Assembly (NCBI RefSeq): GCF_024223415.1
Contig: NZ_CP100501.1
DNA length: 64,000 nucleotides
From: Escherichia coli
GTDB lineage: Bacteria > Pseudomonadota > Gammaproteobacteria > Enterobacterales > Enterobacteriaceae
Direction: 5' to 3' (one strand)
Shown here: positions 24,600 through 39,959 of the stretch, one piece after another
How the letters are laid out: each line of letters begins with the position of its first letter
Position numbering within the stretch: the stretch's first letter is position 1
Notes under the pieces: model-generated
What the model saw: the letters and a program-made list of their open reading frames with translations, nothing else
What the model was told of the DNA's origin: nothing
Database searches by the model: none
Position numbers and translations under genes: made by a program

Positions 24600-24981
24600 A
24601 GTATGACGGAGACGGGCGGGCAACTGCCCGTTTCTTTTCCGGTAAAGGATGTCGCCATGCTCCTCTTTTTACTGCGCCGGCTGACGCGGCGCGGCATAAA
24701 CGCTGCCTGTGGTCAGTGTCCCGCGTCCGGTGGGCACGGGACGGGCGCTTTTACCGCTCCCGGCTGGCGTCGGTGACAGTGTACGCCAGCCTGTCGCCCT
24801 TTTCTGATGAACGCCCTTCAAGCCGCTTTCGCGGCATAACCTTGCCGTCAAACAGACGACGGCTGCGGTATTCCACGGTCGGCCTGACCCGTTACCGGAC
24901 GCGGTGAACAGCCCACAGGCAGCGGGGAACGGGCACCACAGGGGTGCCCTCCCGGTGCCCCCTGTAAGAGAAGGAGCTGTT

Positions 24982-25665
24982 ATGTCCCGTTTTATCCTGG
25001 GTGACTGCGTGCGTGTTATGGCCACGATTCCTGATAACGCCATTGATTTCATATTAACCGATCCGCCATATCTCGTCGGTTTCCGTGACCGTTCCGGGCG
25101 CACCATTGCCGGTGACGTTAATGATGACTGGCTGCAACCGGCCTGTAATGAGATGTACCGCGTACTCAAAAAAGACGCGCTGATGGTCAGCTTCTACGGC
25201 TGGCACCGTATTGACCGCTTTATGGCGGCCTGGAAACGCGCCGGATTCAGCGTGGTTGGCCACCTGGTCTTCACCAAAAACTACACATCCAAATCTGCGT
25301 ATGTCGCGTACCGCCACGAATGCGCTTACATCCTGGCAAAGGGCAGTCCGGCCCGGCCCCGTAACCCGCTGCCGGATGTGCTGGGCTGGAAATATTCGGG
25401 CAACCGCCATCACCCGACGGAAAAGCCCGTTACCAGCCTGCAACCGCTGATTGAGAGCTTCACACATCCGAACGCGATTGTGCTGGATCCGTTTGCAGGC
25501 AGCGGTTCAACCTGCGTGGCCGCCCTTCAGTCCGGACGCCGGTATATCGGTATCGAGCTGCTTGAACAGTATCACCGTGCCGGACAGCAACGACTGGCCG
25601 CCGTGCAACGGGCCATGCAGCAGGGGGCCGCGAATGATAACTGGTTTATGCCGGAGGCTGCGTAA
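24982..25665 (+). CDS. Orphan DNA methyltransferase (N6-adenine/N4-cytosine class, beta-group order)
   Basis: DPPY motif near the N-terminus and FAGSGST near the C-terminus; start MSRFILGD with GAAGGAG RBS; no adjacent restriction gene. Confidence 0.85.
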   Translation: MSRFILGDCVRVMATIPDNAIDFILTDPPYLVGFRDRSGRTIAGDVNDDWLQPACNEMYRVLKKDALMVSFYGWHRIDRFMAAWKRAGFSVVGHLVFTKNYTSKSAYVAYRHECAYILAKGSPARPRNPLPDVLGWKYSGNRHHPTEKPVTSLQPLIESFTHPNAIVLDPFAGSGSTCVAALQSGRRYIGIELLEQYHRAGQQRLAAVQRAMQQGAANDNWFMPEAA

Positions 25666-27217: not shown

Positions 27218-27548
27218 GCAGGCTCCGCTTTACTCGGCCATGCGGGGCATGGCCTTGTGGGTTTTCAGTTATGTGGCCTCAGCGTCGTGTGCGGGCTGTG
27301 CCGTGCCTCCATCGTAGCCGGGCTTCTGCGGGCGGGTTGCAAGGTAAGGTGAACCGCTGCGGTCACCCGGTCCCTCCTTCCCGTCTGCCGTGATTTTCCG
27401 GTCGTTCACCCGCTCAGATTTCGCGGTCTCACCCTCCAACTCCCGCCAGCCGTGTGCGTCAGGCTGCGGCTTCCCTTGCGCCCTTGCAACCCTGCAGGCC
27501 CGGCAAAGATGGAGGCACGGCACCGCCCGGTGTCGCGGAATATGTGAA
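27218..27548 (+). repeat. Leading-region repeat family A, copy 1 (single-strand promoter-like)
   Basis: About 330 bp, near-identical by eye to 34139..34478; ends about 17 bp before the klcA start. Confidence 0.6.
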
Positions 27549-33438: not shown

Positions 33439-34031
33439 TGAAATCAGACGAAAAATACCAGGTTCCCGCGTGGATGCGACCTCTGTTGCCGTTGCTCTGC
33501 AACACCGGGGAGAACGATCCGGAAGAACTGCTGAATGATACAGAAACCACTGCCAGTGCGAATGTTGTCCGTTATGTGCTGATAGTTGCTGTGCGGTCGC
33601 AGGTTGATCTGCTGCAGCTTCTGTACAGGAAAGGGCTGTTGCGCACAGAGATACCAGGTGGCTTTTCACCGGAAGAAGCGCAGGAACTCCTGGATAATCT
33701 GGTGCGCAGCCATATCAGCAGGGCGCTGTCGGGTGAGCGAATGGCAGCCCGTGACAGGAATGCCGATCTGGCCTGGATTCGACAGCAACTGGTCGATGCC
33801 GCCTGGTTTGTCCGTGCCACACTGGAAGCGCATGGGATGAGCGTCGGAAATGAGAGTCCCCCTGCTCAGCCGGAGACAATGCCGGACATACAGACACGGG
33901 AACTGGTGATGTTGATCAAGCGACTGGCATCATCGCTGAAAGCGGTGAAACCGGACAGTTGTGTGGTGCGTGAAGCGCAGGACTGGCTGCGCGACAGAAA
34001 ACTTGTGAGCATCACGGATGTTCTTCGGTGA
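33435..34031 (+). CDS. Hypothetical leading-region protein
   Basis: Start MMKSDEKYQ; overlaps the psiA stop. Confidence 0.55.
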   Translation: MMKSDEKYQVPAWMRPLLPLLCNTGENDPEELLNDTETTASANVVRYVLIVAVRSQVDLLQLLYRKGLLRTEIPGGFSPEEAQELLDNLVRSHISRALSGERMAARDRNADLAWIRQQLVDAAWFVRATLEAHGMSVGNESPPAQPETMPDIQTRELVMLIKRLASSLKAVKPDSCVVREAQDWLRDRKLVSITDVLR

Positions 34032-34138
34032 ACCAGTGGAGGTATGCTTGAGGAGCAGGGACATGCCGGTCATGATCGTTTCGTTCCAGGGGTGGTCTGG
34101 AGATCATGCGGCGTGTCCTCTGCACTCGCCGGAATAAG

Positions 34139-34478
34139 GACGTCGCCGCCGGCTCCGCTTTTACCCGGCCATGCGGGGCATGGCCTTGTGGGTTTTCAGC
34201 TCTGTGGCCTCAGCGTCGTGTGCGGGCTGTGCCGTGCCTCCATCGTAGCCGGGCTTCTGCGGGCGGGATGCAAGGTAAGATGAACCGCTGCGGTCACCCG
34301 GTCCCTCCTTCCCGTCTGCCGTGATTTTCCGGTCGTTCACCCGCTCAGATTTCGCGGTCTCACCCTCCAACTCCCGTCAGCCGTGCGCGTCGGGCTGCGG
34401 CTTTCCTTGCGCCCTTGCATCCCTGCAGGCCCGGCAAAGATGGAGGCACGGCACCGCCCGGTGTCGCAGAACATGTGA
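34139..34478 (+). repeat. Leading-region repeat family A, copy 2, upstream of ardA
   Basis: Near-identical by eye to 27218..27548. Confidence 0.6.
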
Positions 34479-34495
34479 CTATGGAGGATTCGGGA

Positions 34496-34996
34496 ATGTC
34501 TGTTGTTGCACCTGCTGTATACGTTGGAACCTGGCACAAATATAACTGCGGAAGCATCGCCGGCCGCTGGTTTGACCTGACCACGTTTGATGATGAACGC
34601 GATTTTTTCGCCGCCTGCCGTGCCCTTCACCAGGATGAAACCGATCCGGAACTGATGTTTCAGGATTATGAGGGTTTCCCGGGGAATATGGCCTCTGAAT
34701 GTCATATCAACTGGGCCTGGGTTGAAGGCTTCCGCCGGGCACGGGATGAAGGCTGCGAAGAGGCTTATCGTCTCTGGGTGGATGATACCGGTGAGACGGA
34801 TTTTGACAGCTTCCGCGATGCCTGGTGGGGCGAGGCTGACAGTGAGGAGGCTTTTGCGGTTGAGTTCGTCAGTGATACCGGCCTGCTGGCTGACGTGCCG
34901 GAGACGGTGGCGCTCTATTTTGACTATGAGGCGTATGCGCGGGATTTATTCCTGGACTCCTTCACCTTTATTGACGGTCATGTGTTCCGTCGGTGA
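34496..34996 (+). CDS. ardA: Antirestriction protein ArdA
   Basis: MSVVAPAVYVGTWHKYNCGSIAGRWFDLTTFDDERDFF..., strongly acidic 166-aa protein; GGAGGA RBS. Confidence 0.9.
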   Translation: MSVVAPAVYVGTWHKYNCGSIAGRWFDLTTFDDERDFFAACRALHQDETDPELMFQDYEGFPGNMASECHINWAWVEGFRRARDEGCEEAYRLWVDDTGETDFDSFRDAWWGEADSEEAFAVEFVSDTGLLADVPETVALYFDYEAYARDLFLDSFTFIDGHVFRR

Positions 34997-35178
34997 TTTA
35001 CTCCCCCGCTCCGGCGGGGGTATGGCCTGCCGGGCCGCCGGAAAACCCTGGCAGGCTTACGCCTGCCTGAAATACAGGAGGGCCGCGCCTGCGGCGCTGC
35101 CCTTCCTGCCCGTCATGGTGTGAGGCATTTTTCTGTTTTGTCGTTTCTGTTGTTCTGATGCCCGGAGGCGGGGACACC

Positions 35179-35720
35179 CTTCGGCTCCCGGCTGCCTGGC
35201 GGCATCCGGTCGTCGGCCCGACTCCGACAGGCAGCTGCTGGCGCACCCGCCAGTCTCCGCCGAACCCGCTGGCGCGGTTTCGGGCTGCCGCTACGGTCCG
35301 ATGTCTGAAAAACCAGGCCTGCAGCGACCGTTCCGGTCGCGCCGCCCCTGTCGCGCCGGAAACGGCGCTCCCTGCACACCTGACGGTGTGTAAGGCCACT
35401 GCGCCTGATGGCGCAGTCAACCCTTCCGCCGCCACCCCTGCGGCCTGTTTCCCGCTGTGGACTTTCCGGGGGCTGAAGCGGCCACAACACGGGGCAGCCG
35501 TCCAGGGGAGAGATGTACCAGCCACAAAACTTTTTGCCGCAGGCGTCAAAAACTTTTGCGTCTGCCCCCGGACAACTGCCCCGTGCCGTGGCAGTCGCTG
35601 CCCCATCGGAAAGGTCCACTGCGGGGAGAAACCCCGAAGAAGTGGACGGCAGAAGGGGCTTTCGCCCCTCCGGGGGAGCAACCGGTCGGCCCGGCGACCT
35701 GATTCAGCAGAAGGAGACGT
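35179..35720 (+). repeat. Leading-region repeat family B, copy 2
   Basis: Similar by eye to 28833..29395; immediately upstream of the ORF at 35725. Confidence 0.6.
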
Positions 35721-35724
35721 TTTC

Positions 35725-36159
35725 ATGACAGTCAGCAGCACGATTTCCGTTTTTTGCCGAGACGGGGTGTTCCGTACCGTTTACTGCCACCTGCACGGTG
35801 AGCCGACCTGGAACGGTCGCATCCTGCATACCCACTATGCCACCGGTCAGCTGGCCGAAGCCCTGGTTGAACACGGAGATATCCGTTGCCTCGGTCCCCG
35901 TTGCGACAAACCCGCCGGGCATACGCTTCAGAACCCGGTGGACGGTGTGACGGCTTATTACGGACGTGACAGTGGTTTCCGGATGGACAGTGAGGCGCGT
36001 GAGTACCGTTCTTTCAGGGAGGCTATTGCCACTGAAAGCACTGAAGAGGTGCGCTTCCATTATGTGTTCATCGACGGCTACTGGAAGGTGATGTACCGCA
36101 CGCCGGAAGGCTGGAAGATGAAAGCGCTCGCGCTGGCACTGCGTCGCTGTCCGGAATGA
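35725..36159 (+). CDS. Hypothetical leading-region protein
   Basis: Start MTVSSTISVF at ATG 35725 with GAAGGAGA RBS; 144 aa, Cys/His-containing. Confidence 0.6.
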   Translation: MTVSSTISVFCRDGVFRTVYCHLHGEPTWNGRILHTHYATGQLAEALVEHGDIRCLGPRCDKPAGHTLQNPVDGVTAYYGRDSGFRMDSEAREYRSFREAIATESTEEVRFHYVFIDGYWKVMYRTPEGWKMKALALALRRCPE

Positions 36160-36250
36160 AAAAAAGCAGGGCGATAAACCCTGCCTCTCTCCGCCGCTGC
36201 TTCCCGGCCAGGAAGAGCGGCAGTCATCAACAACATAAGGAGAAATATTT

Positions 36251-36517
36251 GTGAGACCATCAATTATCTTCGCAACCGCCGAGTATGTAAAGCGTCTGCG
36301 TGAAGAGTGCCTGCGGGAGAATAAACCCCTGCACCGCCATACCCGCTTCAGACGTCAGGAGCTGGCACAGGATGAGATTAACCCGGACGTCCTGGCGATG
36401 AGCGGTCATATCGCCAGACGCTGCAGTGAGCAGAAGCGGGTGCGTATCCCCGCCATGAAAGTCAGCGAATGGGGCCACCTGCTCCGCGCGCTTGAAATTG
36501 AACGGGTCTGTCACTGA
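36251..36517 (+). CDS. Hypothetical small protein
   Basis: 88-aa ORF from GTG with AAGGAG RBS. Confidence 0.4.
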   Translation: MRPSIIFATAEYVKRLREECLRENKPLHRHTRFRRQELAQDEINPDVLAMSGHIARRCSEQKRVRIPAMKVSEWGHLLRALEIERVCH

Positions 36518-36581
36518 TTAACCCTTGCCGTCTGCCTGTGCAGGCGGCAGGATACGTTCAGACATCTCACCAGGAGGAACC

Positions 36582-37460
36582 GTGAGTAAGAAGAAAAACA
36601 CCACAACGCCCACGCCGCATGATGCCGCGTTCCGGTCGTTCCTGGCGAATCCCGACGTTGCCAGGGATTTTCTGGAGTTGCATCTTCCTGCGGAGTACCG
36701 GCAGTTGTGCGACCTGTCCACCCTGAAGCTGGAACCCGCCACCTTTGTTGAGCCGGACCTGCATCAGTACGCCAGCGATATCCTCTGGAGTGTGAAAACC
36801 ACCGGGGGTGAAGACGGCTATGTTTATACGCTCATCGAGCACCAGAGCACCGAAAATCTGTACATGCCTTTTCGCATGTTACGTTACAGTGTGGCGGCGA
36901 TGCAGAGACATCTGGAGCAGCACAAAACGTTGCCACTGGTCATTCCGGTGCTGTTCTATCACGGTGAGCGCAGCCCGTACCCGTACAGCATGAACTGGCT
37001 GGACTGTTTTGAGAATCCGGCACTTGCGGCTAAAATATACACAAAGCCGTTTCCGCTGGTTGATATCACTGTCGTTGATGACAATGAAATCATGAACCAT
37101 CGCCGGATGGCCGCACTGACGCTGCTGATGAAGCATATCCGCCATCGTGACATGATGGAGCTGCTGGACAAACTCCCGCAGGTCATGGTGGAAATTTCAG
37201 ACGAGCAGGTGCGTGTTCTGATTCATTACATCGTTAACGCAGGGGACACTGTATCACCGGAATTTATGCGGGCGCTGGCCGAGCGCCTGCCGCAGCATGA
37301 GGATAAACTGATGACAATCGCAGAACGTCTTGAGCAGAAAGGTGCGCTTGAAAAAGCCCTGGCCATTGCGCGTCAGCTTCAGAAAATGGGGATGACACCT
37401 GAGCAGATTAAGCAGGCCACCGGACTTTCCGAAGCTGAACTGAAAAAAGTCATTCACTGA
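36582..37460 (+). CDS. Rpn-family (YhgA-like, PD-(D/E)XK) recombination-promoting nuclease
   Basis: Start GTG 36582 after AGGAGGA; MSKKKNTTTPTPHDAAFRSFLANPDVARDFLELHLP... is the hallmark Rpn N-terminus. Confidence 0.85.
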   Translation: MSKKKNTTTPTPHDAAFRSFLANPDVARDFLELHLPAEYRQLCDLSTLKLEPATFVEPDLHQYASDILWSVKTTGGEDGYVYTLIEHQSTENLYMPFRMLRYSVAAMQRHLEQHKTLPLVIPVLFYHGERSPYPYSMNWLDCFENPALAAKIYTKPFPLVDITVVDDNEIMNHRRMAALTLLMKHIRHRDMMELLDKLPQVMVEISDEQVRVLIHYIVNAGDTVSPEFMRALAERLPQHEDKLMTIAERLEQKGALEKALAIARQLQKMGMTPEQIKQATGLSEAELKKVIH

Positions 37461-37521
37461 TGAGAGCATCACAGCCCGGCAAAATGCCGGGCTTTTTGCC
37501 AGCAGGAGCAGAGCAAACAGC

Positions 37522-37728
37522 ATGACGATTGCAGAACGTCTTATACAGAAAGGTTTCGACGAGGGTTTTAAAGAAGGTTTTAAAGAAGGTTTTAAACAAG
37601 GAGCTCTTGAAGTGGCGCGGGAAATAGCCTGCCGGCTTCGGGATATAGGCTGGTCGCCGGAACGGATTCAGGAGGTCACGGGACTTTCCGGTGAAGAACT
37701 GAAAAAGCTGTTTCCTGATGAGCAGTAG
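37522..37728 (+). CDS. Stand-alone small protein resembling the Rpn C-terminal tail domain, with (EGFK)3 repeat
   Basis: MTIAERLIQKG...GWSPERIQEVTGLSGEELKK parallels the Rpn C-terminus MTIAERLEQKG...GMTPEQIKQATGLSEAELKK. Confidence 0.55.
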   Translation: MTIAERLIQKGFDEGFKEGFKEGFKQGALEVAREIACRLRDIGWSPERIQEVTGLSGEELKKLFPDEQ

Positions 37729-37758
37729 CCTGGCATTCAGCCAGGCTGTGAATCACGC

Positions 37759-38010
37759 TCACACATCCTCTGCCGTTTCCCCCAGTTCATTTTCCAGTCG
37801 CCTGATGATATCTGCCTTACGCATCCCCTGCATGTGAGGCAGCAGGTCACGGACTGAAAGTGCCTGGGTGGTCCTCCAGACGGTGACGTCCACCTGTTCC
37901 GCATTTTCCCAGGCGTGCCATGTTCTCTGCGTCACGCCAAATTCTCTGGCCGCTTTTTCGCGTGACCAGAGCATGCTTTTTCGCCAGATTCGCAGTTCCC
38001 ATCCGGTCAT
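37759..38010 (-). CDS. Small putative HTH DNA-binding protein
   Basis: 83-aa ORF on the opposite strand to its neighbours. Confidence 0.45.
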   Translation of the reverse strand: MTGWELRIWRKSMLWSREKAAREFGVTQRTWHAWENAEQVDVTVWRTTQALSVRDLLPHMQGMRKADIIRRLENELGETAEDV

Positions 38011-38228
38011 AAAACACCTTTGAAAAAGTGAAAAAACTTCACTTTATTTTATCATCACAATTGCCAAATCAGCGCGATAAATAAGTGTAAAAAAGTGAAG
38101 AAATTTCACTTTTTTTGGTTGTAAATGTCGTGCGGTTTTCTCTGTTTTCACCTGTGCGGGAGTGGTGTGCCAGTGACCACCACATGCCATTGTTGTGCCG
38201 TCGTTTTTCTTCAGTCGCGCCGGATGCG

Positions 38229-38585
38229 GCGCTCCCTGCACACCTTACGGTGTGTAAGGCCACTGCGCCTGATGGCGCAGCTGCCTCTGCCTGTCTGCCG
38301 CCGCACTGCGGCCTGTTCTCCGCAGACGGACTTTCCGGGGGTACATACACGACCACATCCCGTTTCAGTCGTCCAGGGGAGAGATGTACCAGCCACAAAA
38401 CTTTTTGCCGCAGGCGTCAAAAACTTTTGCGTCTGCCCCCGGACAACTGCCCCGTGACGTGGTGAGCGTCCCCCGTCGGAAAGGTCCACTGCGGGGAAAT
38501 CCCCGAAGACCCGGACGGCAGAAGGAGCTTCGCTCCTCCGGGAAATGACCTGGCTGACCCGGCAGTCGTGACGATGAGGAGACAA
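38229..38585 (+). repeat. Leading-region repeat family B, copy 3 (shorter), upstream of the ORF at 38587
   Basis: Similar by eye to the 3' about 360 bp of the other B copies. Confidence 0.55.
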
Positions 38586-38586
38586 T

Positions 38587-39438
38587 GTGATGAATCAGAC
38601 TTTACCCACTGCTGACCTGAATACTGCCGGCACGACAGATGTTATTCCGTCTGTGGCTATCGACCGCATCATCGCGCAGCGTAACGAAGGTATTGCACTG
38701 TTCATGCAGGCGATGGAATGCCTGGCGACAGCGCGCAGGATTCTGCTCGATGCTTCCGGTGACATTTTTCTCTACGGGTTTGAAGACTGCGTGACTGACT
38801 CCGTTCGATGCATGGATAAACCGGAAGAAGCGAAAAGGAATATCACCCGTCTTGCCGACCGGAAAATCTGGGACCGCCTGATGACAGATACGGGCATGTA
38901 CACCTTCATGAGTTCATGCCAGCGTGATGAGTGGAACAGCCAGCTGATGAGCGACACCTGTCCTGAAATCACCCTGGACAATGTACTGGCAACATTCCGC
39001 CATCTTAATGCCAGCAAGATGCAGACATTTGAACAGGGACTGATTGATGTCTACCGGAAATTGTCATGGGATTACAGAACCAATAATCCCTGCCGTCTGG
39101 GCAAGAAAATCATTATTGAAAACCTGCTGTACCGCTGGAGTAACGGGCGTGTGACGCTGGACTGCAGCAGACGGGAGGCACTGGATGACCTGGTACGTCC
39201 GTTTTATCTGCTGGAGGGGCGCAACGTTCCTGACTTCAGGAACAGCATCGGGGCGCAGTATGGTGAATTTCTCAGGAACGGCGACAATGTCGGTAAGTTG
39301 TTAGAAGGGGAATATTTTACGGTGCGTGGCTACCAGAAAGGGACCGTACACATTGTCTTTAAGCGTTCTGACCTTGTTGAAAAACTGAATGATATTATTG
39401 CACGGCATTATCCTGGTGCATTGCCGCCACGAGTCTGA
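38587..39438 (+). CDS. Hypothetical protein; first plus-strand leading-region gene next to oriT
   Basis: 283-aa ORF with GAGGAG RBS, directly behind B-repeat copy 3. Confidence 0.65.
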   Translation: MMNQTLPTADLNTAGTTDVIPSVAIDRIIAQRNEGIALFMQAMECLATARRILLDASGDIFLYGFEDCVTDSVRCMDKPEEAKRNITRLADRKIWDRLMTDTGMYTFMSSCQRDEWNSQLMSDTCPEITLDNVLATFRHLNASKMQTFEQGLIDVYRKLSWDYRTNNPCRLGKKIIIENLLYRWSNGRVTLDCSRREALDDLVRPFYLLEGRNVPDFRNSIGAQYGEFLRNGDNVGKLLEGEYFTVRGYQKGTVHIVFKRSDLVEKLNDIIARHYPGALPPRV

Positions 39439-39523
39439 TTAAACAGAAAAGCCCTGGTATTTATGCCGGGGCTTTTTTTTCTGTAATCATCATAATCTCA
39501 GAACACGATGTGACATTGTCACA

Positions 39524-39865
39524 TCAATTGTTGTTCATATCGATGCCATCTTTCCTGCCTGAATCTGTCTTTTTAGGTGCTGTTTTAGAGGAAGAACGGC
39601 GGGATGTTTTTTTCGATTCTGCTTCCCGAATAATGTCACGAAGTGCCTTCTCTCCTACTTCATACCCTGCATTTTTGAGCGTGTCACGAATATCTGCCAG
39701 TGTATAACCCTTTGTCCTTACCAGGACAATAATGTCATCACGAATGGCATCAAGAAAATCACGCAATGTTTTCCGTTGAGCGGTGAGATCTGGCAATTCC
39801 GATAAAGCAGCTTTTGCCAGCTGGATGTCATCATCTGAGTAAAATTTTTTAGAAGCCATTGGCAC
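39524..39865 (-). CDS. Hypothetical protein adjacent to oriT (basic C-terminal tail)
   Basis: 113-aa ORF; C-terminal KKTSRRSSSKTAPKKTDSGRK. Confidence 0.5.
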   Translation of the reverse strand: MPMASKKFYSDDDIQLAKAALSELPDLTAQRKTLRDFLDAIRDDIIVLVRTKGYTLADIRDTLKNAGYEVGEKALRDIIREAESKKTSRRSSSKTAPKKTDSGRKDGIDMNNN

Positions 39866-39959
39866 TTTCTCTCCGTTTAATCTTGAAGCCTGATTTTATC
39901 ATCAAAAACTGACTCCTGGCAGGGCTGCGCCCTGCCTCTGCCGTCTGCATAAGACTATG

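What the first reader, a model, noticed from the sequence alone, without database searches (positions are those of the whole stretch)
38587..39438. Unknown first-transferred gene behind a single-strand promoter-like repeat: candidate anti-defence or establishment function
The nick motif puts the transferred strand as the minus strand, entering from about 40000 toward lower coordinates. The first plus-strand gene met is the unknown 283-aa ORF 38587..39438, directly behind B-repeat copy 3. Another unknown ORF (35725..36159) sits behind B copy 2, while the other repeat copies precede ssb, klcA and ardA. Early-entering leading-region genes behind such elements are often anti-defence or establishment factors, so these two are prime candidates.
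Basis: partly seen in the sequence, partly recalled or inferred. Interest (0 to 1): 0.6.

Follow-up and report, generated by a model that had tools for sequence, protein, structure and literature searches.

The report
Known early-entry plasmid gene, function unknown
The ORF is ygfB, a widespread but uncharacterised DUF4942-family gene that sits behind the published single-strand promoter ssi1 next to the transfer origin of an IncI-type resistance plasmid; others have already flagged it as an early-expressed anti-defence candidate, and its function is still untested.

Summary
The window is an IncI-complex plasmid. The nick site is on the minus strand at 40001/40000, and the leading region runs towards lower coordinates. 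"B-repeat copy 3" (38212-38540) is 99.4% identical to ColIb-P9 Frpo1/ssi1. The ORF most likely starts at ATG 38590 (282 aa) and is the first gene readable from the transferred strand.

What I add:
- The protein is not a methyltransferase, despite common labels.
- A confident AlphaFold model matches no solved fold.
- The whole protein equals the non-catalytic half of phage and proteobacterial fusion proteins whose other half is an NPPF-type N-methyltransferase core.
- It is near-neutral in charge, so it is not an acidic, ArdA/Ocr-type DNA mimic.
- At least 5,000 plasmids carry a homologue.

Best guess: an early-made accessory protein, possibly nucleic-acid-binding, that helps incoming DNA survive restriction. 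This is inferred, not shown.

The parts
Homology to the other two copies extends to about 38205-38570.
   Evidence: 327/329 identical to ColIb-P9 Frpo1. Three-copy family. The minus strand folds at -109.8 kcal/mol, z = -7.9. 98% identical to pESBL, where the start site was mapped.
38576..38581 (+). Shine-Dalgarno GAGGAG for ygfB.
   Evidence: Read from the sequence. It lies 8 nt before ATG 38590.
38590..39438 (+). ygfB (pESBL Hp22), a 282-aa stand-alone DUF4942 protein.
   Evidence: Pfam PF13708 E=2.3e-52, residues 90-275. 97-98% identical to RefSeq 'DUF4942 domain-containing protein'. AlphaFold2 mean pLDDT 90.3.
39450..39481 (+). Probable intrinsic terminator: AGCCCTGG, 8-nt loop, CCGGGGCT, then a T-run. 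It closes a monocistronic unit.
   Evidence: Read from the sequence. The consensus scan did not list it.
39524..39865 (-). 113-aa ORF (pESBL Hp23/'YggA', RefSeq 'MobC') between ygfB and oriT. It enters first physically but cannot be read from the T-strand.
   Evidence: No significant Pfam match.
40000..40045 (-). oriT core: inverted repeat 40010-40045, then the nick motif CATCCTG|T with the nick between 40001 and 40000.
   Evidence: Read from the sequence. Position matches the pESBL oriT. nikA and nikB follow at 40092 and 40436.
35348..35672 (-). ssi2/Frpo2 (B-repeat copy 2).
   Evidence: 89.7% identical to ColIb-P9 Frpo2.
35725..36159 (+). Function unknown.
   Evidence: No Pfam match. PHROG 1987/23089, both unknown. 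Sources mislabel it 'PndC'. Probably Samuel family 23, matched by that label and the family's Selected annotation.

Best explanation
This is the ssi1-ygfB unit of an IncI-complex conjugative plasmid.

**Expression.** About 1.5 kb of the minus strand enters the recipient and ssi1 folds into a long imperfect hairpin that host RNA polymerase uses as a promoter. ygfB is then transcribed from single-stranded DNA, up to the terminator at about 39450-39481. It is the oriT-proximal ssDNA-promoter unit and so probably the earliest plasmid transcript. This step is shown by homology to published experiments on near-identical plasmids.

**The protein.** It is a stand-alone DUF4942 module with a fold that matches no solved structure. 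It is not itself a methyltransferase. The same module, with the same invariant residues, forms the non-catalytic half of phage and proteobacterial proteins. Their other half is a small NPPF-type N-methyltransferase core with no other module that could recognise DNA.

**Inferred mechanism.** YgfB is an accessory protein of the methylation/restriction-evasion toolkit and possibly binds nucleic acid. Made within seconds to minutes of entry, it acts on the incoming plasmid DNA. It could do this by partnering a methyltransferase supplied in trans, or by occupying DNA. Either way it would lower restriction or another DNA-targeting defence in non-isogenic recipients, and it would be dispensable in undefended laboratory matings.

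**My likelihoods.** Early expression from ssDNA, about 0.9. An establishment or anti-defence role of some kind, about 0.6. The specific methylation-linked DNA-binding mechanism, about 0.3.
For: **Identity and expression**
- ssi1 is 99.4% identical to ColIb-P9 Frpo1 and the strand forms a strong hairpin.
- The locus is 98% identical to pESBL. There, RNA-seq and 5' RACE showed six induced ssDNA-promoter operons, with ssi1-3 classed as class 1, the strongest class.

**Enrichment**
- Samuel et al. family 24: 2,171 members, median position 1 from oriT, T-strand-compatible orientation.
- At least 5,000 PLSDB plasmids carry a homologue, 92% of them conjugative.
- The same geometry, co-oriented with ssb, KlcA-type antirestriction and RadC/JAB genes and pointing towards the relaxase, is seen in IncL/M pOXA-48 and a TrwC-type plasmid.

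**Link to methyltransferases**
- Fusions of DUF4942 with MTS/N6_Mtase domains carry the EPSAGxG and NPPF motifs. They are numerous.
- One fusion lies in the replication module of a Brevundimonas prophage.
- YgfB keeps the invariant residues of the fused forms: W94, D200, R203, H254, N267, R31, D90.
- About 14 basic positions are conserved.
- The same small methyltransferase core is itself a leading-region gene in IncF plasmids, where it is paired with another accessory gene.
Against: - There are no functional data for any family member. Literature searches for DUF4942, ydiA and ygfB found nothing functional.
- Insertions in pESBL Hp22 are neutral for maintenance and K-12 to K-12 transfer.
- No methyltransferase of the fused type is encoded in this window or near the stand-alone genes sampled.
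- The plasmid's own methylase (M.EcoGIX type, 24913-25596) belongs to a different class.
- No known DNA-binding fold was recognised.
- The many conserved polar and acidic residues would also fit an enzyme.
- The substrate of the fused methyltransferase (DNA, RNA or protein) is not established. Only weak Erm/KsgA/PrmC-level hits were found.
- Plasmid F lacks the gene in its leading region, so it is not universally needed.
Confidence: 0.45

Rival explanations
1. YgfB directly inhibits a host defence protein by protein-protein binding, as an anti-restriction, anti-CRISPR or other anti-defence factor. On this reading it has no connection to methylation, and the fusion to methyltransferases elsewhere is incidental.
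For: It has the earliest position and expression in the leading region. It neighbours ArdA and KlcA-type genes here and in other plasmid families. It also occurs in runs of small same-strand genes that look like phage early regions.
Against: Samuel et al.'s table records no sequence or fold similarity to known anti-CRISPR or anti-restriction proteins, and no solved structure matched in my fold searches. The charge is near neutral (pI 6.3, family median 6.9), so it is not an ArdA/Ocr-type DNA mimic. Many invariant polar residues are held across very distant taxa, and fusion to one enzyme class recurs. Both are unusual for fast-evolving inhibitors.
Confidence: 0.2
2. YgfB has a general DNA-processing or establishment role on the entering strand, for example protecting or handling ssDNA, or helping complementary-strand synthesis or recircularisation near oriT. 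It would not counter a specific defence.
For: It is the ssDNA-promoter unit closest to the nick. A fused relative sits between DnaB, RuvC and GcrA genes in a prophage replication module. The leading region also encodes SSB, PsiB and ParB-like establishment proteins.
Against: Transposon insertions do not reduce transfer or maintenance in laboratory matings. F and many other plasmids lack it. The family is found with several unrelated relaxase types, so it is not tied to one DNA-processing machinery.
Confidence: 0.15
3. YgfB is itself a DNA methyltransferase, as many database labels say ('Methyltransferase', 'Methyltransferase domain', 'Restriction methylase').
For: Names attached to family members in UniProt and AFDB. 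PHROG 6263, 'DNA methyltransferase', matches the protein.
Confidence: 0.03
4. The gene is a passenger. The selected function at this spot is ssi1 itself, acting as a primer or roadblock for complementary-strand synthesis, and the ORF has no role in conjugation.
For: ssDNA promoters in F also act as replication roadblocks and contribute to priming. The Hp22 insertions are neutral.
Against: The ORF is intact in about 1,900 of 2,082 related plasmids. The family is conserved at 30-50% identity across many plasmid types and phages, with invariant residues. It is strongly enriched at this position.
Confidence: 0.05

Closest known systems
ssi1-ygfB locus of IncI1 plasmids ColIb-P9, R64 and pESBL-EA11 (Hp22)
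   Same: It is essentially the same locus. ssi1 is 99.4% identical to ColIb-P9 Frpo1. The 2-kb region is 98% identical to pESBL. The protein is 97-98% identical to database YgfB/DUF4942 entries. The gene order is identical: HTH, ssi1, ygfB, yggA, oriT, nikAB.
   Different: The backbone here types closest to IncK2/Z rather than IncI1. Otherwise there are only minor sequence differences.
[not shown]
   Same: Same family and length (about 260-300 aa) and the same invariant residues, at 34-52% identity. In pOXA-48 and a TrwC-type plasmid they lie in leading regions co-oriented with ssb and antirestriction genes.
   Different: They are usually several genes away from oriT. Samuel family 76 has median position 6, and in pOXA-48 the gene is about 6 kb from the relaxase operon. 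They are not necessarily behind an ssi1-type element.
DUF4942-methyltransferase fusion proteins of phages, prophages and alpha/beta-proteobacteria (for example PHROG 6263, P0212, P0215, P0426)
   Same: The N-terminal 270 or so residues align with the whole of YgfB and keep its invariant residues.
   Different: They carry an additional class I methyltransferase core of about 170 aa with the EPSAGxG and NPPF motifs. YgfB lacks this core, and no such core is encoded in this window.
Frpo1-ygeA/ygeB (DUF932) unit of plasmid F
   Same: Same architecture: a class 1 ssDNA promoter next to oriT driving the first T-strand-readable genes, which are expressed in new transconjugants.
   Different: The gene behind it is unrelated (DUF932). 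F has no DUF4942 homologue in its leading region. F ssiD is only about 75% identical to B3, and only over the central 110 nt.
Characterised leading-region anti-restriction functions: ArdA, ArdB/KlcA and the ssDNA methyltransferase M.EcoGIX
   Same: Same region, same strand, and driven by ssDNA promoters in pESBL. All are dispensable in K-12 to K-12 matings.
   Different: There is no detectable sequence or fold relationship. YgfB is not acidic like ArdA and has no catalytic methyltransferase motifs.

Membership tests
DUF4942 (PF13708), the YgfB/YdiA family | Significant full-length match to the Pfam profile | tested here: met
   E=2.3e-52, profile positions 5-189 of 190, residues 90-275.
DUF4942 (PF13708), the YgfB/YdiA family | Family-invariant residues and the stand-alone architecture of about 280 aa | tested here: met
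   W94, P125, F136, L158, D200, H254 and N267 are invariant in 49 diverse homologues. AFDB50 hits are all DUF4942/YgfB/YdiA, with TM-scores up to 0.90.
Class 1 single-strand DNA promoters (Frpo/ssi) | Sequence homology to an experimentally defined Frpo/ssi element | tested here: met
   327/329 identical to ColIb-P9 Frpo1. About 75% identical to F ssiD over the core.
Class 1 single-strand DNA promoters (Frpo/ssi) | A long imperfect hairpin on the transferred strand, upstream of a gene whose template is that strand | tested here: met
   The minus strand folds at -109.8 kcal/mol, z = -7.9, 0 of 100 shuffles as good. The nick is on the minus strand and the ORF on the plus strand.
Class 1 single-strand DNA promoters (Frpo/ssi) | Transcription initiates on ssDNA in new transconjugants | not testable with these tools
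   Shown by RNA-seq and 5' RACE for pESBL, which is 98% identical here.
Class I SAM-dependent (DNA) methyltransferases | SAM-binding motif I (GxG type) and catalytic motif IV ((D/N/S)PP(Y/F)) | tested here: not met
   Neither motif is in the 282 aa. In the fusions both motifs lie outside the YgfB-aligned part. There are no Pfam methyltransferase hits.
Class I SAM-dependent (DNA) methyltransferases | Rossmann-like methyltransferase fold | tested here: not met
   [not shown]
Known anti-restriction protein families (ArdA/Ocr DNA mimics, ArdB/KlcA, ArdC) | Sequence or fold similarity to a characterised member | tested here: not met
   None in Pfam, NCBIfam or PADLOC, in PDB sequence or profile searches, or in fold searches. 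Samuel et al. also report none.
Known anti-restriction protein families (ArdA/Ocr DNA mimics, ArdB/KlcA, ArdC) | Strongly acidic, DNA-mimicking surface (ArdA/Ocr type) | tested here: not met
   pI 6.3 and net charge -1.3 at pH 7. Family median pI is 6.9.
Leading-region anti-defence island genes (operational definition of Samuel et al. 2024) | [quoted passage not shown] | tested here: met
   The gene lies 0.6-1.4 kb from the nick, on the plus strand, behind ssi1, with ardA, klcA, psiB and ssb upstream. Family 24 has median position 1 and strand 1.
Leading-region anti-defence island genes (operational definition of Samuel et al. 2024) | Demonstrated protection against a defence system | not testable with these tools
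   No experiment exists in the searchable literature. Tn-seq in an undefended mating is neutral.

The most novel reading that the evidence does not exclude
DUF4942 is a previously unrecognised fold that serves as the DNA-recognition or loading module for small methyltransferase cores lacking a target-recognition domain. Its stand-alone plasmid form, YgfB/YdiA, would then be a new class of restriction-evasion or establishment factor. It would be the first protein made by IncI plasmids, and an early one in IncL/M and other plasmids, on entering a cell. It would act without a catalytic partner of its own, for example by redirecting a host or co-resident methyltransferase to the incoming DNA or by shielding that DNA.
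Probability: 0.3. Interest if true: 0.65.

Novelty: already known. Interest (0 to 1): 0.35.

Why it matters
IncI, IncK and IncL/M plasmids spread ESBL and carbapenemase genes, and what they express in the first minutes after entry helps decide which hosts they can colonise. This gene belongs to the oriT-proximal early unit, is carried by at least 5,000 sequenced plasmids, and has no known function or known fold. A real anti-defence or methylation-adaptor activity would therefore add a new mechanism to plasmid establishment. As a scan finding it adds little: the element, its early induction and the family's candidate status are all published. The useful corrections are that the 'methyltransferase' label is wrong for the stand-alone protein, and that the link to methyltransferases is a domain-fusion association only.

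Tried and rejected
**Searches that found nothing useful**
- PDB sequence search with the protein, and a profile search with 49 homologues: no hit below E = 0.7.
- AFDB50 returned only family members.
- NCBIfam gave no hit. PADLOC gave one marginal 37-residue hit, which I dismissed.
- Rfam found no known RNA family in 34000-40500.
- Literature searches for DUF4942, ydiA and ygfB found no functional study.

**Hypotheses tested and rejected**
- YgfB pairs with the plasmid's own M.EcoGIX-type methylase (24913-25596). Rejected as a specific link. That enzyme has the reverse motif order (DPPY before FAGSGS) and shares only the generic SAM motif with the methyltransferase fused to DUF4942.
- A methyltransferase core of the fused type lies in the window, or near stand-alone DUF4942 genes in pOXA-48, an IncHI-type plasmid and a TrwC-type plasmid. 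None was found.
- IncF plasmids encode that methyltransferase core next to a DUF4942 gene. They do not. There it follows a DUF3560 gene, which is unrelated to DUF4942 (hhalign probability 0.2).
- Plasmid F has a homologue in its leading region. It does not.

**Left unresolved**
- I could not place the -35 and -10 boxes confidently within the hairpin by eye. The double-strand consensus scan finds none there.
- All three fold-search jobs went on the whole model, so the C-terminal alpha/beta half was not searched on its own.

Full report
**What the window is.** The 2 kb around the finding matches about 2,000 IncI-complex plasmids of Escherichia, Salmonella and Klebsiella at 95-99% identity. The best hit is an IncK2/Z plasmid. 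Its annotation gives this gene order: M.EcoGIX-type methylase, klcA-type antirestriction gene, ssb, DUF905, ParB-like gene, psiB/psiA, ardA, three small unknown genes, an Rpn nuclease, a divergent HTH gene, a 'DUF4942 domain-containing protein', a minus-strand 'MobC', then nikA and nikB. pESBL-EA11 has the same order.

**Transfer direction.** On the minus strand, an inverted repeat (40010-40045) is followed by CACATCCTG|T. From my own knowledge this is the RP4/IncI-type nick core, here directly upstream of nikA. It coincides with the oriT interval mapped in pESBL. The T-strand is therefore the minus strand. All leading-region genes except the 113-aa ORF 39524..39865 are on the plus strand, so their template is the T-strand.

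**The repeat.**
- The repeat finder and a three-way alignment show one repeat family with three copies, before ssb, before ORF 35725..36159 and before ORF 38590..39438.
- A second, unrelated pair lies before klcA and ardA (27229-27528 and 34160-34459, 97% alike).
- I compared the copies with the Frpo/ssi sequences listed in Supplementary Table 2 of Samuel et al. 2024.
  - Copy 3 (38212-38540, minus strand) is 327/329 identical to ColIb-P9 Frpo1.
  - Copy 1 is 329/331 identical to Frpo3.
  - Copy 2 is 89.7% identical to Frpo2.
- The minus strand of copy 3 folds at -109.8 kcal/mol against -73.4 ± 4.6 for shuffles, z = -7.9.
- So the 'single-strand promoter-like repeat' is the published ssi1, a class 1 ssDNA promoter. 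The klcA and ardA repeats correspond to the 'class 2' promoters of Wen et al. 2025.

**Published expression data.**
- Window 38100-40086 is 98% identical to pESBL.
- Wen et al. eliminated donor cells and ran RNA-seq on transconjugants. They found up to about 500-fold induction of leading-region genes arranged in six operons.
- Each operon was preceded by a hairpin. Three of the hairpins were ssi1-3, and all six start sites were confirmed by 5' RACE.
- The unit behind ssi1 in pESBL is Hp22, the orthologue of this ORF.
- I could not read the per-gene values because no supplement is held. Induction of this particular gene is therefore inferred from the text, not read from a table.

**Published candidate status.**
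- In the Tn-seq study of pESBL, Hp22 scored 1.00 'non-essential' for maintenance and for K-12 to K-12 transfer. So did ArdA, KlcA and M.EcoGIX. The result therefore says nothing about defended recipients.
- That table shows no DIAMOND or Foldseek hit to anti-CRISPR or anti-restriction sets. A second DUF4942 family (76) has 551 members and median position 6.

**The gene.**
- ATG 38590 lies 8 nt after GAGGAG and is the start used for homologues. The GTG at 38587 is one codon earlier.
- A hairpin plus T-run at 39450-39481 follows the stop codon, so the unit looks monocistronic.

**The protein.**
- Pfam finds only DUF4942, at E=2.3e-52. NCBIfam finds nothing.
- PHROGs gives one unknown-function family, plus 'DNA methyltransferase' phrog_6263. 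The latter matches only positions 26-286 of a 548-position profile.
- An all-against-all HMMER search finds 2,083 cluster representatives at E ≤ 1e-3. Most are stand-alone proteins of 255-300 aa.
- An AlphaFold2 model built on 49 diverse homologues is confident: mean pLDDT 90.3, pTM 0.80. It has a helical N-terminal half (helices 21-158) and an alpha/beta C-terminal half (160-275).
- The fold therefore has no solved relative, and the protein is not a Rossmann-type methyltransferase.
- It is near neutral (pI 6.3; family median 6.9), unlike DNA-mimic anti-restriction proteins.
- It has seven invariant residues, many conserved polar residues and about 14 conserved basic positions.

**The methyltransferase connection.**
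- Some relatives are 450-580 aa long.
- In them, the whole of YgfB aligns with the N-terminal half. The C-terminal 170 aa or so is a class I methyltransferase core with FFPTP, (V/L)LEPSAGxG and MNPPF motifs. Pfam calls it MTS or N6_Mtase.
- Such fusions are numerous in alpha- and beta-proteobacteria and in metagenomes. One sits between DnaB and the terminase genes of a Brevundimonas prophage.
- The invariant residues of YgfB are kept in the fusions.
- The methyltransferase core has no other domain that could recognise a substrate. I therefore infer that DUF4942 supplies substrate binding or loading. This is an inference.
- The substrate of the core (DNA, RNA or protein) is not established by sequence. 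There are only weak Erm/KsgA/PrmC-level hits. The FFPTP and NPPF motifs are, from my own knowledge, typical of gamma-class N6-adenine DNA methyltransferases.
- No such core is encoded in this window or near the stand-alone genes I sampled.
- The plasmid's own M.EcoGIX-type enzyme is of a different class.
- The same small core is a leading-region gene in at least 5,000 mostly IncF plasmids. In the two loci I examined it directly follows a DUF3560 gene, which is unrelated to DUF4942.

**Distribution and context.**
- At least 5,000 PLSDB records carry a DUF4942 homologue, and 92% of them are predicted conjugative.
- In pOXA-48 (IncL/M) the gene lies in the leading region, co-oriented with ssb, a KlcA-type gene, DUF1380 and a JAB/RadC-like gene.
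- In a TrwC/TrwB plasmid it lies beside an Antirestrict-family gene and RadC, pointing towards the relaxase operon.
- Distant members sit in long runs of small same-strand genes that look like phage or island early regions.
- F has no homologue in its leading region.

**Interpretation.** The expression mechanism is established by near-identity to studied plasmids: ssi1 hairpin, host RNA polymerase, transcription off the entering strand. What the protein does is not established.
- The reading I favour is a non-catalytic accessory of the methylation/restriction-evasion toolkit, possibly nucleic-acid-binding, that acts on incoming DNA.
- The rivals are a direct inhibitor of a defence protein, a general DNA-processing helper, a methyltransferase in its own right (contradicted), and a passenger gene (unlikely given its conservation).

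**The second ORF (35725..36159).**
- It is real and conserved, and it sits behind ssi2.
- It has no Pfam domain and matches only unknown-function PHROGs.
- It is widely mislabelled 'PndC'.
- It probably corresponds to Samuel family 23 (2,203 members, median position 7). I match it by the 'PndC' label and that family's Selected annotation, not by sequence. I did not pursue it further.

**Verdict.** The locus is a known one. The open question, what the DUF4942 module does, is genuine and directly testable.

Noticed in passing
window 38025-38045 and 38092-38112: There are two perfect copies of the inverted repeat AAAGTGAA-N5-TTCACTTT, 67 bp apart, with none expected by chance. They lie between the divergent XRE-type HTH gene (37759-38010, minus strand) and ssi1. 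They are probably operators of that repressor. They might control a conventional promoter reading towards ygfB once the plasmid is double-stranded: a promoter-like site at 38028-38055 overlaps the first copy.
   Followed up: partly
L018 7514-9486 and L019 6515-8486 (IncF plasmids): These two IncF leading regions carry a 187-aa NPPF methyltransferase core with no target-recognition domain. It is 35-37% identical to the methyltransferase half of the DUF4942 fusions. In both it directly follows a 453-aa DUF3560 gene, upstream of ssb. So the same small core pairs with different accessory modules in different plasmid families. At least 5,000 plasmids carry this core.
   Followed up: partly
window 37522-37728 (+), just after the Rpn nuclease gene 36525-37460: A 68-aa ORF matches only the last 60 or so residues of Rpn-family profiles (NCBIfam and PHROG 3300). 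It is a separate small gene resembling the Rpn C-terminal tail, and it is conserved in pESBL as Hp20.
   Followed up: no
window 27229-27528 and 34160-34459: A second repeat pair, 300 nt long and 97% identical, lies upstream of klcA and ardA. It is distinct from the B/ssi repeats and corresponds to the 'class 2' ssDNA promoters reported for pESBL.
   Followed up: partly
window 39524-39865 (-): A 113-aa ORF lies between ygfB and oriT (pESBL Hp23/'YggA'). RefSeq names it 'molybdopterin-guanine dinucleotide biosynthesis protein MobC', which looks like a naming error. It has no significant Pfam hit. It enters first but is encoded on the T-strand, so it can be expressed only after complementary-strand synthesis. 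It is dispensable for transfer in the pESBL Tn-seq.
   Followed up: partly
window 35725-36159 (+): The 144-aa ORF behind ssi2 is labelled 'post-segregation killing protein PndC' in many records. It has no relation to the Hok/Pnd system that I could see, no Pfam domain and only unknown-function PHROG matches.
   Followed up: partly
window 38044-38241 (-): An annotated 65-aa 'hypothetical protein' overlaps the left edge of ssi1 and the second operator-like repeat. Its translation is compositionally odd and has no family match, so it may not be a real gene.
   Followed up: no
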